IMG/VR virus record: IMGVR_UViG_2795385584_000001
Location: 21,334-85,333 of that record
DNA from: a virus
Taxonomy: Duplodnaviria > Heunggongvirae > Uroviricota > Caudoviricetes
Direction: 5' to 3' (one strand)
DNA: 64,000 nucleotides
Shown here: positions 46,156 to 48,583 of the stretch, in pieces
Position numbering within the stretch: position 1 is the stretch's first letter
Layout of the letters: each line of letters opens with the position of its first letter
Notes under the pieces: model-generated
What the model saw: only the letters and a program-made list of their open reading frames with translations
Told to the model about the DNA's origin: nothing
The model's database searches: none
Translations under genes and position numbers: made by a program

Positions 46156-46536
46156 CTACATCTCCTTCTCGTTGGCTAGTTCTAGTAGGACATCGGCGTG
46201 GCAGGGGGCGTCGAGTCGGCACCAGCAGCAGAGGTCGTGCCCTCGGAGAAGTGGCACCAGGTCCTCCACGCGTTTCATGGAGCCGAGGAGCCAGCGGCGA
46301 TACAGGCGCACTGCGTAGGCTGCCGCCCACTCGTGTGTCCCGGTGCCCCTGAAGAACGTCCCCGGCCCCTCGACGGTCCAGACACGTTCGCGACGGCGGC
46401 TGAATAGGCCGGGCTCCGTACCGGCACACACCACCCGGTACGGGTTACCCCAGCGAGATGGCCGGGCCACCACGATGGCCCCCTTCGGTTTGTGCCAGCC
46501 CGCAGTACGCCGCAACTGGATACGGATAGGCATCAA
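46156..46536 (-). CDS. DUF4326-like protein
   Basis: LRGHDLCCWC...CHADVL motif. Confidence 0.45.
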   Translation of the reverse strand: MMPIRIQLRRTAGWHKPKGAIVVARPSRWGNPYRVVCAGTEPGLFSRRRERVWTVEGPGTFFRGTGTHEWAAAYAVRLYRRWLLGSMKRVEDLVPLLRGHDLCCWCRLDAPCHADVLLELANEKEM

Positions 46537-47510
46537 ACCGCCTCCTCGCCGCTACGGCAGCCATACGGCGAGCACCCGTCTGGGTCGCCATCTTCGAATA
46601 GGTCCAGTTGCATGTCGGCGTACTCGGCGCGTGTCACGCGGTCAATTGGTGCCAGGTCCAACGGAACTCGCGAGCGGTGTAGGAATGCCTCACCGTCGAG
46701 CGGACTTGCCGAAGCGCCACCCTTGCGGATGTGCCGATCGAAGTCGACGGCGTCGGCCCACTGCGGTGCTCGGAACCGTGGGCACTCGCAACGATGTACG
46801 TCGGAGTAGTCGGCGTCCGGCGGTAGCCGGTATTCACACCAGCCATCGACGTTGTGTGCGTCGCGACGGTGTCCGCACTCGCACGTGTCGCGCAGCGCGC
46901 GCCAGGCGGCGTTTCCATGGAACGGGCATCCAATGCATGCACTCTTGGCGGTATGGCCCCATCCGGCGTGCTCTAGCCAGCGCTGGCAGTCCTTGCGAGA
47001 CATGCCCAGATCGAGCAGCGGGTAACGCGGCCGGGAGTAGTTCACGTCCAGGCGATCGCGCACGCGGTGGATCTCGTCAGTGCTGAATCCGATCCACTGC
47101 TCCGCGAACACATCACGCGGAACCGGTGTCGGGTGTGGGTAGCCCAGCAGTTCACGCGTCTTGACCTTGATCGGCTTGAGCTTGTACTCACTGGTGCACT
47201 GGCGCCGACCCATGCCCTCGCCGCCATCGACATTGCGGACGAACCACGGCACTGAGACGAACCGGTGATCAGGGTCTAGGGCGTCGGCCCGCAGATTCCC
47301 CGACGACACCCGGTACAGCGGAATATCAACGCGCGCAAGCTCGGCGCCGAGCCGGTCTACCTGTTCGTAGACTGCTAGCGGCTCCCAGCCGGTATCGGCG
47401 AACACCGCTGCGTCCAGACCGGGCAAGGTGCCGTCACACGCCATGAGCGCCAACACGGTCGACTGAACGCCAGCACCCAAAGACAGCACCCGGATAGCAG
47501 GCTCAGTCAT
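46533..47510 (-). CDS. PAPS reductase-like PP-loop protein
   Basis: VLSLGAGVQST PP-loop-like N-terminus; C-terminal Cys pairs. Confidence 0.65.
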   Translation of the reverse strand: MTEPAIRVLSLGAGVQSTVLALMACDGTLPGLDAAVFADTGWEPLAVYEQVDRLGAELARVDIPLYRVSSGNLRADALDPDHRFVSVPWFVRNVDGGEGMGRRQCTSEYKLKPIKVKTRELLGYPHPTPVPRDVFAEQWIGFSTDEIHRVRDRLDVNYSRPRYPLLDLGMSRKDCQRWLEHAGWGHTAKSACIGCPFHGNAAWRALRDTCECGHRRDAHNVDGWCEYRLPPDADYSDVHRCECPRFRAPQWADAVDFDRHIRKGGASASPLDGEAFLHRSRVPLDLAPIDRVTRAEYADMQLDLFEDGDPDGCSPYGCRSGEEAV

Positions 47511-48583
47511 AGGGTCATCTCTGGGTACTCGTCGAAGGTGCGGCCGTCGTGGTATAGCTCCCGGCCAGCTGCCTTCTTGCCGACTCGGTACATGGAGGTC
47601 GGGCGGTGATGCGGGAAGTCGGCACGGATCGCCTCGCCCCGCCGTGGGCCGTCAGGCCAGTCCAGATCGCCTGCCTCGTAGGTGTTTCCGTCGTCGGTCA
47701 TCGCGATGCTGTTCGAGAAGTCGAACCGGCCGTTTTTCAACGGCGCCATGGGTGTCCAGTCGCCCCACTGTTTGAAGAGGAAAGGGACACCGGCCGCGCC
47801 GCATTGACGGTGCAACTTCTCGGCCCACCACGGGTGCATCGGCCTGGCACCCGGCCCTGATTCGCCGCCGACGATCACCCAGTCGATGCCGCGGTCGAAT
47901 TCGTCGCGAGCCAGCAGCCCTGACGCGTCCGTATCAATCAATCCGAGTAGCGGCTCAGCACTGACGTATCGCACAGCAGCCGGGGTGTCCAACAACGCCG
48001 GGATACGGAGTTCCGCGTGCTTCTGGTCCTCAGCGCTCACACCCAGCCACACGTTCGGCAACACCTTGAACTGTCCACGCGCGAAGCCGTCTAGGGCCGC
48101 CATCACAGTGATGTCATCGACGCCATGCGGGTTCCCCTGCGCCAGCTTCGAGTTGAGCGCCTCGTACACCAGTCCTGGGAACCGTTCCGAACCGACCAAT
48201 GAGCGCATACGTCCGTGTCGCTTGGTGAGCACCTGGAACGTGTGCAGCGGCGCCAGCGCCATGACCGCCCAAACGCGGGCGATGTACTCGTCAGGGATCT
48301 TGGCGTGGAACAGGTCCGACATAGAGTTTACGAAAATGCGCCGCGGCCGGGTCCACCGGAGCGCTTGATCCAGCACCCCCGGGTGGACATTCACGCCGAA
48401 TCCTGGACCAGACGTTTTCAGGTCTCCGTCCAACTGGTAACGCGGAGATCCCATGGCCTTCAACCGCTTTGCCAAGTTCATGGCGTAGCAGTTGTCGCAT
48501 CCGGGCGAGACTTTGTCACACCCGGTTGTCGGATTCCAGGTGGCGTCCGTCCATTCGATGCCTGTCTTGTCTCCCATGCTCAT
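47507..48583 (-). CDS. phage Gp37/Gp68-family (DUF5131) protein
   Basis: N-terminus [26 protein letters not shown] is characteristic. Confidence 0.6.
   Translation of the reverse strand: [358 protein letters not shown]

What the first reader, a model, noticed from the sequence alone, without database searches (positions are those of the whole stretch)
46156..48583. DUF5131 (Gp37/Gp68) + PAPS-reductase-like + DUF4326 co-transcribed trio: candidate DNA/nucleotide modification module
Three overlapping genes encode a Gp37/Gp68-family protein ([26 protein letters not shown]), a PP-loop PAPS-reductase-family enzyme (the family that includes DndC-type DNA sulfur-modification enzymes) and a DUF4326 protein. 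The recurring pairing of the first two suggests a shared but undefined pathway. In a phage, an anti-restriction DNA modification or nucleotide-salvage role is plausible.
Basis: partly seen in the sequence, partly recalled or inferred. Interest (0 to 1): 0.6.

Follow-up and report, generated by a model that had tools for sequence, protein, structure and literature searches.

The report
Three prophage enzymes, not one module
Three adjacent early genes of a Mycobacteroides prophage really do encode a radical-SAM-type enzyme, a sulfur-transfer-type ATPase and a DUF4326 protein, but comparison with hundreds of related phages shows they are separately exchangeable genes, not a fixed three-enzyme pathway.

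Summary
Three tightly packed minus-strand genes encode a DUF5131 protein, a PP-loop enzyme and a DUF4326 protein at exactly the given coordinates.

The "PAPS reductase" is below Pfam's cut-off. By fold it is a PP-loop ATP pyrophosphatase, as close to Fe-S tRNA thiolases as to PAPS/APS reductases, with weak SspD similarity. DUF5131 folds as a radical-SAM enzyme whose nearest solved relative is the DNA repair enzyme spore photoproduct lyase.

The claimed recurrent DUF5131 + PAPS pairing is not found:
- 0 of 112 dereplicated DUF5131 loci carry the PAPS-like gene.
- Only 2 of 41 species-dereplicated PAPS-like loci carry DUF5131.
- Two otherwise identical prophages differ only by an exact 1137-bp PAPS-gene insertion between DUF5131 and DUF4326.
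- The window's closest relatives lack the PAPS gene.

The pairing that does recur, weakly, is DUF5131 with DUF4326. It occurs in about 12% of loci, is enriched within three genes (p 0.006), and is seen in actinophages, two alphaproteobacterial phages and a haloarchaeal virus.

The trio is part of a long early operon of more than 25 genes. No PT-system partner NTPase is present. Function remains inferred: DNA-directed accessory or counter-defence enzymes.

The parts
47507..48583 (-). DUF5131 (Gp37/Gp68) protein, 358 aa. Radical-SAM-fold enzyme with an invariant CX6CX2C motif (C22, C29, C32) and an invariant GGESG motif (residues 239-243).
46533..47510 (-). PP-loop ATP-pyrophosphatase ('PAPS reductase-like'), 325 aa. 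It has a variant P-loop SLGAGVQST and invariant cysteines at C105, C175, C192/C195 (CIGCPFHGN) and C313/C318 (DGCSPYGC, in a low-confidence C-terminal tail). A lineage-variable Cys-rich insert lies at about residues 208-245. It behaves as an independent single-gene cassette.
46156..46536 (-). DUF4326 protein, 125-126 aa. Invariant residues are R5, R10, R25-P26, G30-N31 and the C-terminal C104-W-C106-x5-C112-H-A-D-x-L-L-x-x-A-N block.
   Evidence: Pfam PF14216 at E 4e-19. PHROG 464 at E 5e-31. Alignment of 30 sequences. The start context shows a GAGGAGG Shine-Dalgarno sequence and a TGATG stop/start overlap. No solved relative by sequence.
49247..50287 (-). Context gene: a cupin annotated in phages as 'cysteine dioxygenase' (N-terminal 154 aa) fused to a PHROG 2831 domain. 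It recurs upstream of DUF5131 in Mycobacteroides prophages, and a homologous annotation sits near DUF5131 and DUF4326 in Rhizobium phage PPF1.
   Evidence: PHROG 4786 at E 4e-44 and PHROG 2831 at E 1e-19. No Pfam hit. Locus maps. PPF1_48 annotation. Noted by Dedrick et al. 2021 (PMC8092301).
45209..46153 (-). Context gene: replication initiation protein immediately downstream of DUF4326. It marks the downstream edge of the accessory-gene slot.
   Evidence: PHROG 3171 at E 7e-67. The same gene follows DUF4326 in L004 and L112.

Best explanation
The three genes are individually real enzymes but do not form a dedicated three-step pathway.

Setting. They occupy a mosaic accessory-gene slot in the long leftward early operon of a Mycobacteroides abscessus-type prophage integrated next to tRNA-Arg. 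The slot lies between the RecE/RecT recombination genes and the replication initiator.

The three proteins.
1. DUF5131 is a radical-SAM-fold enzyme. It has a non-canonical CX6CX2C iron-sulfur motif, and its closest solved relative is spore photoproduct lyase, so a DNA substrate is the most likely one (inferred).
2. DUF4326 is its only recurrent partner, and a loose one. It lies on the same strand, usually 0-2 kb downstream, in about one DUF5131 locus in eight, across actinophages, alphaproteobacterial phages and a haloarchaeal virus. The two may therefore act on a common substrate (inferred).
3. The PAPS-reductase-like gene is a separate, self-contained cassette. It is a PP-loop ATP pyrophosphatase with a conserved cysteine set, like Fe-S-dependent thiolases, APS reductase and SspD. 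It most likely adenylates a substrate and transfers sulfur (inferred). In a minority of Mycobacteroides prophages it has been dropped precisely between DUF5131 and DUF4326 by recombination at short conserved stop/start junction sequences.

Shown: the domain and fold assignments, the operon context, the mosaicism, the indel and the co-occurrence statistics.

Inferred: every biochemical activity and any role in DNA modification, repair or counter-defence.
For: Identity of the proteins.

Operon context. Gene tiling with 4-nt overlaps runs throughout 40.3-57.8 kb. There are no promoter or terminator signals above chance. Neighbours are RecE, a RecT-like protein, HNH, a replication initiator and a DNA-binding protein.

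Prophage setting. The window is 82% covered at 91% identity by prophiGD43A-5. tRNA-Arg lies at the prophage end.

Mosaicism.
- The nearest relatives (prophiT37-1, and L004, the contig of the 72% best hit) have DUF5131, then five other genes, then DUF4326, with no PAPS gene. The high-identity flank stops at window position 46524.
- L112 has a PAPS gene 96% identical to the window's but a DUF5131 only 53% identical.
- L016 and L018 are 100% and 99.96% identical on either side of an exact 1137-bp insertion of the PAPS gene. The insertion is bounded by the repeated junction GGTGGCGTGATGCC.

Co-occurrence.
- PAPS-like genes occur in 0 of 112 dereplicated DUF5131 loci.
- DUF5131 occurs in 2, and DUF4326 in 1, of 41 species-dereplicated PAPS-like loci.
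- Near PAPS-like genes in IMG/VR, DUF4326 (7 of 38) and DUF5131 (4 of 38) are no more frequent than WhiB (7), a DNA methyltransferase (7) or an exonuclease (6).

DUF5131-DUF4326 link.
- DUF4326 is present in 13 of 112 dereplicated DUF5131 loci: 10 within three genes and 3 further away (odds ratio 5.8, p 0.006).
- The same neighbourhood occurs in Natrialba virus PhiCh1, Aurantimonas phage AmM-1 and Rhizobium phage PPF1.
- DUF4326 is the commonest Pfam family, apart from integrase, in the first sizeable gene downstream of DUF5131.
Against: - The order DUF5131 > (small ORF) > PAPS-like > DUF4326 also occurs in one divergent metagenomic phage, L142. Identities to the window are 51%, 54% and 76%. 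The arrangement is therefore not confined to one recent lineage, and some selective advantage of the combination cannot be excluded.
- Co-occurrence rates of DUF4326 and DUF5131 near PAPS-like genes in IMG/VR (18% and 10%) exceed rough genome-wide base rates in GenBank phages (under 1% overall; a few per cent in actinophages). I could not obtain a proper matched control set.
- 88% of DUF5131 loci lack DUF4326, so the DUF5131-DUF4326 link is also weak.
- Dereplication by anchor identity does not remove all phylogenetic non-independence.
- My gene calls are home-made (GC-frame model) and lose some short genes.
- No biochemical or genetic data exist for any of the three in any phage that I could find.
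Confidence: 0.65

Rival explanations
1. One reading: the three enzymes form one DNA-modification pathway. An example would be a phage-encoded sulfur (phosphorothioate-like) or other base or backbone modification, in which the PP-loop enzyme activates and thiolates DNA, the radical SAM enzyme supplies radical chemistry, and DUF4326 processes an intermediate. The modification would protect phage DNA from restriction.
For: - The genes are co-transcribed and translationally coupled.
- The PP-loop protein resembles SspD and carries a DndC/APS-reductase-like cysteine set.
- DndC has been reported to use SAM radical chemistry (PMC10853773).
- PAPS-reductase-domain proteins make PT in the Dnd, Ssp and BREX type 4 systems (PMC12914056).
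- PT is common in M. abscessus, and a 'cysteine dioxygenase' gene lies nearby (PMC8092301).
- The same gene order occurs in divergent L142.
Against: - The PAPS gene is cleanly present or absent in otherwise identical prophages, and it is absent from the closest relatives.
- Counts: 0 of 112, 2 of 41 and 3 of 39 co-occurrence.
- PT synthesis needs a partner NTPase (DndD, SspC or BrxC) according to PMC12914056. None is detectable in the operon.
- There is no hit to any NCBIfam model, the DndC model included, at E up to 1.
Confidence: 0.1
2. The PP-loop enzyme modifies RNA, for example by thiolating tRNA or another small RNA, rather than DNA, and is unrelated in function to its two neighbours.
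For: - The invariant cysteines could bind an Fe-S cluster.
- The family is very strongly conserved across actinophages: more than 5000 homologues, the 120 best-scoring at 58-94% identity to the window protein. This fits a conserved host macromolecular substrate.
- The prophage also carries a Ro60 / Y-RNA-like module.
Against: - The only sequence-level hits are SspD, PHROG 'PAPS reductase' and an uncharacterised PDB protein named PptA.
- No RNA-binding domain (THUMP, PUA and the like) is detectable.
Confidence: 0.12
3. The middle gene is a true auxiliary metabolic PAPS/APS reductase that boosts host sulfate assimilation during infection.
For: - It is annotated as PAPS reductase in PHROGs and in GenBank phage records.
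- Its fold resembles CysH.
- From knowledge of the family, its DTG and C-x-x-x-K-x-x-P motifs resemble those of CysH, as read from the alignment.
Against: - It is below Pfam's family threshold, and the match covers only the P-loop region.
- No C-terminal ECG(L/I)H catalytic motif is present in the sequence (the motif comes from knowledge of the family).
- The GxRxxE/Q-type motif is replaced by GFSTDE.
- It lies in a DNA replication and recombination operon.
Confidence: 0.04

Closest known systems
Spore photoproduct lyase (radical SAM DNA repair enzyme; PDB 4fhc) and the radical SAM superfamily
   Different: The motif is CX6CX2C, not the canonical CX3CX2C. Sequence identity is about 10%. There is no detectable sequence match to any PDB chain. 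The substrate is unknown, and there is no evidence that it repairs spore photoproduct.
DUF5131 / TcmP pairs and PADLOC candidate defence systems PDC-M30 and PDC-M41
   Same: The window protein matches the 'B' components of PDC-M41 and PDC-M30 at E 1e-77 and 1e-74. It belongs to Pfam PF07505, named after phiE125 gp37 and Che9c gp68; both phages are among the hits.
   Different: In phages the protein stands alone or near DUF4326, not next to a TcmP-type partner. I did not test the neighbours with a TcmP model. The window gene sits in a lytic early operon, not in a defence island.
SspD / DndC / BrxP: PAPS-reductase-domain sulfur-inserting enzymes of DNA phosphorothioation systems
   Same: It has a PP-loop fold and sequence similarity to SspD (E 4e-6 over about 200 residues). 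It also has a conserved cysteine set compatible with an Fe-S cluster and persulfide chemistry.
   Different: There is no hit to any NCBIfam model, the DndC model included. No partner NTPase or nickase (DndD/E, SspB/C, BrxC) lies in the operon. The P-loop is a variant, SLGAGVQS. The gene is a stand-alone mobile cassette.
Assimilatory PAPS/APS reductase (CysH, Pfam PF01507)
   Different: The match is below the Pfam gathering score. No ECG(L/I)H C-terminal motif is present. The protein carries extra cysteine-rich inserts. Structurally it is equally close to TtuA, NcsA and TilS.
DUF4326 as described by Iyer, Burroughs, Aravind and colleagues (predicted rhodanese-phosphatase-superfamily clade in NAD/ADP-ribose conflict systems)
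   Same: It is a clear PF14216 member. [quoted passage not shown] This fits its position beside the replication initiator here.
   Different: Here it is a stand-alone protein of 125 aa. Its association with DUF5131 is not mentioned in those papers. I could not model its fold, and the predicted phosphatase activity is untested.

Membership tests
Pfam PF07505 DUF5131 (Gp37/Gp68) | Full-length HMM match above the gathering score | tested here: met
   314 bits against a cut-off of 28.9; profile positions 1-243 of 243.
Pfam PF07505 DUF5131 (Gp37/Gp68) | N-terminal three-cysteine motif | tested here: met
   C22, C29 and C32 are invariant in 30 homologues sharing 55-83% identity.
Pfam PF07505 DUF5131 (Gp37/Gp68) | Adjacent TcmP (three-Cys-motif partner) gene, as in the bacterial pairs | not tested
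   The neighbours were scanned with PHROGs and Pfam only. The NCBIfam TcmP model was not run on them.
Radical SAM superfamily | Partial TIM-barrel radical SAM fold | tested here: met
Radical SAM superfamily | Canonical CX3CX2C cluster motif | tested here: not met
   The motif is C-x6-C-x2-C ([15 protein letters not shown]). Non-canonical spacings are known in the superfamily (own knowledge).
Radical SAM superfamily | [4Fe-4S] cluster and reductive SAM cleavage | not testable with these tools
   Needs anaerobic biochemistry.
Pfam PF01507 PAPS_reduct (CysH-type) | HMM match above the gathering score | tested here: not met
   15.0 bits against 22.5; only residues 8-69 are matched. Homologues carry no precomputed Pfam domain.
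Pfam PF01507 PAPS_reduct (CysH-type) | C-terminal catalytic ECG(L/I)H cysteine motif | tested here: not met
   The motif is not present in the 325-aa sequence. The C-terminus instead reads GDPDGCSPYGCRSGEEAV. The motif definition is from own knowledge.
PP-loop ATP pyrophosphatase (adenine nucleotide alpha hydrolase) superfamily | Rossmann-like alpha/beta fold with an N-terminal P-loop after strand 1 | tested here: met
DndC (DNA phosphorothioation) | Match to the curated NCBIfam DndC model | tested here: not met
   No NCBIfam family matches at E up to 1.
DndC / SspD / BrxP PT systems | Adjacent partner NTPase (DndD, SspC or BrxC), stated to be required for PT synthesis | tested here: not met
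   No such protein was found among the operon genes scanned with PHROGs. The requirement comes from PMC12914056.
SspD | Sequence similarity to the SspD profile | tested here: inconclusive
   PADLOC SspD at E 4e-6, 24.7 bits, profile positions 2-187 of 277. This is partial and weak, with no system context.
Pfam PF14216 DUF4326 | HMM match above the gathering score | tested here: met
   69.5 bits against 25; profile positions 2-82 of 82.
Rhodanese-phosphatase superfamily (proposed home of DUF4326) | Rhodanese/phosphatase fold with a catalytic cysteine loop | not tested
The sequence shows C-W-C-x5-C-H-A-D rather than the classic C-x5-R. There is no PDB sequence relative.

The most novel reading that the evidence does not exclude
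DUF5131, a spore-photoproduct-lyase-like radical SAM enzyme, and DUF4326 together form a conserved two-gene viral system shared by bacterial and archaeal viruses. The system would reverse or pre-empt a host-inflicted DNA adduct, for example DNA ADP-ribosylation by DarT-type defence toxins. The basis is that DUF4326 is elsewhere fused to the Macro and NADAR de-ADP-ribosylases. In this reading the PP-loop sulfur-transfer cassette is an optional third counter-defence add-on in Mycobacteroides prophages.
Probability: 0.12. Interest if true: 0.75.

Novelty: new member of a known kind. Interest (0 to 1): 0.35.

Why it matters
All three families are widespread in phages, and none has an experimentally known function: more than 8000, more than 5000 and about 2900 homologues were retrieved.

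The value of this analysis is mainly corrective. It removes a tempting but unsupported 'operon = pathway' inference, and it shows that the 'PAPS reductase' label overstates what is known.

It also yields two concrete handles.

1. Natural isogenic prophage pairs differ only by the PP-loop gene. They are ideal for asking whether that gene alone changes DNA or RNA chemistry or host range in M. abscessus, a species in which therapeutic phages are in use.
2. A cross-domain DUF5131-DUF4326 neighbourhood links an SPL-like radical SAM enzyme to a domain already suspected of acting in NAD/ADP-ribose-DNA conflicts. I did not find this link described in the literature I could search.

Tried and rejected
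- **PptA.** I searched for the paper behind PDB 21fy 'PptA', the only solved protein with sequence similarity to the PP-loop enzyme (E 9e-4). Five literature queries found nothing relevant.
- **Solved relatives.** Sequence and profile searches of the PDB with DUF5131 and DUF4326 gave no meaningful hit.
- **First neighbourhood clustering.** It used all same-strand ORFs and produced artefact clusters made of alternative-frame ORFs inside conserved genes. My first gene caller lost DUF4326 to an over-extended ORF. Both were replaced by a GC-frame log-odds caller.
- **Matched control.** I tried to anchor a control set of loci on a generic early gene (PHROG 210 family, RuvC-like). The alignments were too divergent for the pattern search. 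I used an internal near-versus-far control instead.
- **Regulatory and RNA signals.** Rfam found nothing in or around the trio. The promoter and terminator scan found nothing above chance.
- **'True CysH auxiliary metabolic gene' and 'DndC orthologue'.** I considered both and rejected them on failed membership features.
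Full report
**1. What is there**

The window is a 64% GC sequence whose genes run almost entirely on the minus strand. Positions 40.3-62.6 kb match M. abscessus prophage prophiGD43A-5 (82% covered, 91% identity) and prophiT37-1. The match ends beside tRNA-Arg(acg) at 62608-62683. A tRNA-Ser and a host aminotransferase gene follow. The window is therefore an integrated Mycobacteroides prophage plus a sliver of host DNA.

The finding's coordinates delimit exactly three minus-strand ORFs:
- 47507-48583 (358 aa)
- 46533-47510 (325 aa)
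- 46156-46536 (126 aa; the ATG at 46533, behind a GAGGAGG Shine-Dalgarno sequence, is the likelier start)

The quoted peptide is present. Stop and start codons overlap by 4 nt. The same is true of nearly every junction in a tiling of more than 25 genes from about 57.8 kb to 40.3 kb. Neither promoter-like nor above-chance terminator-like sites occur in 43-58.5 kb. The trio is thus a stretch of a long early operon, not a transcription unit of its own.

Its neighbours are an HNH endonuclease, RecE-like and RecT-like genes, a 'cysteine dioxygenase'-like cupin, a replication initiator and DNA-binding proteins.

**2. The three proteins**

*DUF5131.*
- Pfam PF07505 matches at E 7e-94 over the whole profile.
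- Thirty homologues keep C22, C29 and C32 (CX6CX2C) and a GGESG motif invariant.
- This agrees with RadicalSAM.org, which lists DUF5131 as a radical SAM subgroup adjacent to SPL (PMC9477430). It also agrees with a weak NCBIfam match to a radical SAM family.
- The protein matches the B components of two PADLOC candidate defence systems, PDC-M41 and PDC-M30, at E 1e-77 and 1e-74.

*The 'PAPS reductase'.*
- Pfam PAPS_reduct scores 15 bits against a cut-off of 22.5 and covers only the P-loop region. None of the top 120 homologues has a precomputed Pfam domain.
- PHROG 424 ('PAPS reductase') matches at E 1e-45. PADLOC's SspD profile matches at E 4e-6 over about 200 residues. No NCBIfam model, DndC included, matches.
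- The family is large and tightly conserved: more than 5000 hits, the 120 best-scoring at 58-94% identity to the window protein.
- Its conserved features are a nearly invariant SLGAGVQST loop, an FADTGWEP motif, RRQCTSEYK, CIGCPFHGN and a C-terminal GDxDGCSPYGCRSG. Cysteine-rich inserts vary between lineages; the window has one at about residues 208-245.
- The only solved protein with sequence similarity is 'PptA' (PDB 21fy, E 9e-4). I could not trace its publication.

The protein is therefore best described as a PP-loop ATP pyrophosphatase of the sulfur-transfer kind. It is not a demonstrated PAPS reductase or DndC.

*DUF4326.*
- Pfam PF14216 matches at E 4e-19.
- Invariant residues include R5, R10, R25-P26, G30-N31 and a C-W-C-x5-C-H-A-D block.
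- The literature predicts a rhodanese-phosphatase-type enzyme. It would process ribose-linked phosphates of ADP-ribose derivatives and would bridge NAD signalling with DNA modification, replication and R-M (PMC9503650, PMC7824862).

**3. Is it a module?**

I fetched about 350 related loci and searched them with HMMs built from the three alignments.

*DUF5131 with the PAPS-like gene.*
- Of 81 IMG/VR loci anchored on DUF5131, 1 held the PAPS-like gene and 11 held DUF4326.
- Of 80 loci anchored on the PAPS-like gene, 10 held DUF5131 and 23 held DUF4326. Many of these were near-duplicates from M. abscessus isolates.
- After dereplication (38 loci), DUF4326 (7) and DUF5131 (4) were no commoner than WhiB (7), a DNA methyltransferase (7) or an exonuclease (6).
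- In one genome per species (GTDB), 41 PAPS-like loci held DUF5131 in 2 and DUF4326 in 1. None held all three, and the gene order differed.
- In GenBank phages the PAPS-like gene occurs in 39 records, and only 3 of them have DUF5131 beside it.
- A second DUF5131 scan, anchored on a Rhizobium phage protein, gave 0 of 80 with the PAPS-like gene.
- Pooled and dereplicated, 112 DUF5131 loci contain no PAPS-like gene.

*Direct evidence of independence.*
- The window's closest relatives carry DUF5131, five unrelated genes (including a metallophosphoesterase) and then DUF4326. The 92%-identical flank ends at window position 46524, the DUF4326/PAPS boundary.
- L112 has a PAPS gene 96% identical to the window's, next to a DUF5131 only 53% identical.
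- Contigs L016 and L018 are 100% and 99.96% identical, apart from an exact 1137-bp insertion of the whole PAPS gene between DUF5131 and DUF4326. Both edges carry the stop/start junction GGTGGCGTGATGCC.
- The one counter-indication is L142, a divergent metagenomic phage with the same order of all three genes.

**4. What does recur**

DUF4326 lies near DUF5131 in 13 of 112 dereplicated loci. Ten of these are within three genes, mostly directly downstream on the same strand, and three are further away. That gives an odds ratio of 5.8 and a Fisher p of 0.006, using the rest of each locus as an internal control.

The same neighbourhood appears far outside actinophages:
- Natrialba virus PhiCh1: p70 is DUF5131 and p72 is DUF4326 at Pfam E 9e-20.
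- Aurantimonas phage AmM-1: genes 47 and 49.
- Rhizobium phage PPF1: genes 62 and 59, with an NTP pyrophosphohydrolase and a 'cysteine dioxygenase' nearby.

Each family occurs in under 0.4% of GenBank phage records, so this is unlikely to be chance.

The link is partial, however. About 88% of DUF5131 loci lack DUF4326. In PhiH1 an HNH gene replaces DUF5131 beside DUF4326. A Pfam census of the first sizeable downstream gene shows no dominant partner: integrase 5, DUF4326 4, assorted DNA methyltransferases, and mostly nothing. I found no paper describing this association.

**5. Mechanism**

*Shown:* the folds, the motifs, the context, the mosaicism and the statistics.

*Inferred:*
- DUF5131 binds a [4Fe-4S] cluster through CX6CX2C and cleaves SAM to act on DNA, as its nearest relative SPL does.
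- DUF4326 acts on the same substrate or on a by-product.
- The PP-loop enzyme adenylates a substrate and inserts sulfur through its cysteines.

A phosphorothioation role is weakened by the absence of the partner NTPase that PT synthesis is reported to need (PMC12914056). A genuine CysH role is weakened by the failed Pfam threshold and the missing C-terminal motif.

I commit to this reading: these are independent accessory genes acting on nucleic acids, with a loose DUF5131-DUF4326 pair and an add-on PP-loop cassette. My confidence is about 0.65 for the architecture and much lower for any specific chemistry.

**6. Verdict**

All three families and the mosaic early-region setting are known, and Dedrick et al. 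had already remarked on PAPS-reductase-like and cysteine-dioxygenase-like genes in these prophages (PMC8092301). The finding is a new member of a known kind and of modest interest.

Two results are useful. One is the refutation of the DUF5131-PAPS pairing. The other is a pair of testable leads: the isogenic PAPS-positive and PAPS-negative prophages, and the cross-domain DUF5131-DUF4326 neighbourhood.

Noticed in passing
window 35884-37599 (-) and 37898-38350 (-): The prophage encodes a Ro60 orthologue (Pfam TROVE E 6e-46; vWA_Ro60 E 2e-63). Just upstream are three sub-threshold matches to the Y-RNA-like family YrlA (best E 2.8e-6, 37.6 bits against a gathering score of 69). ARAGORN also calls a 'tRNA-Thr' at 38272-38350 that overlaps the best YrlA match, while Rfam's own tRNA match in the E-value scan lies next to it at 38113-38271. 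It looks like a phage-borne Ro60 / Y-RNA module.
   Followed up: partly
window 49247-50287 (-): This is a fusion of a cupin annotated in phages as 'cysteine dioxygenase' (PHROG 4786) with a PHROG 2831 domain. It has no Pfam match. It recurs upstream of DUF5131 in several Mycobacteroides prophages, and a similarly annotated gene lies near DUF5131 and DUF4326 in Rhizobium phage PPF1.
   Followed up: partly
L016 6987-7006; L018 6987-7006 and 8123-8142: The PAPS-gene indel is bounded on both sides by the same stop/start junction, GGTGGCGTGATGCC. This suggests that gene cassettes in these early operons are swapped by recombination at short conserved gene-boundary sequences.
   Followed up: yes
window 62608-62820 and 62957-64000: The prophage match ends at tRNA-Arg(acg), the likely attachment site. 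tRNA-Ser(gct) and a host class I/II aminotransferase gene follow.
   Followed up: partly
window 28000-33000: GC content dips to 0.57 (30-32 kb) against about 0.65 elsewhere, and AT skew changes sign. Two plus-strand ORFs (29009-29689, 29822-30373) have no Pfam match. This may be a foreign cassette between the structural and early regions.
   Followed up: no
window 46533-47510, protein residues about 208-245: The PP-loop protein carries a cysteine/histidine-rich insert (CECGH...C...CEC) that is present in some homologues and absent in others. A second variable Cys-rich insert site lies after residue 95 in other lineages. These are probably zinc-ribbon decorations of unknown role.
   Followed up: no
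PDB entry 21fy, chain C ('PptA'): This is the only solved protein with detectable sequence similarity to the PP-loop enzyme family. It shares the GF(S/T)T(D/E)E and C-x-G-C motifs. I could not find what it is or does in the searchable literature.
   Followed up: partly
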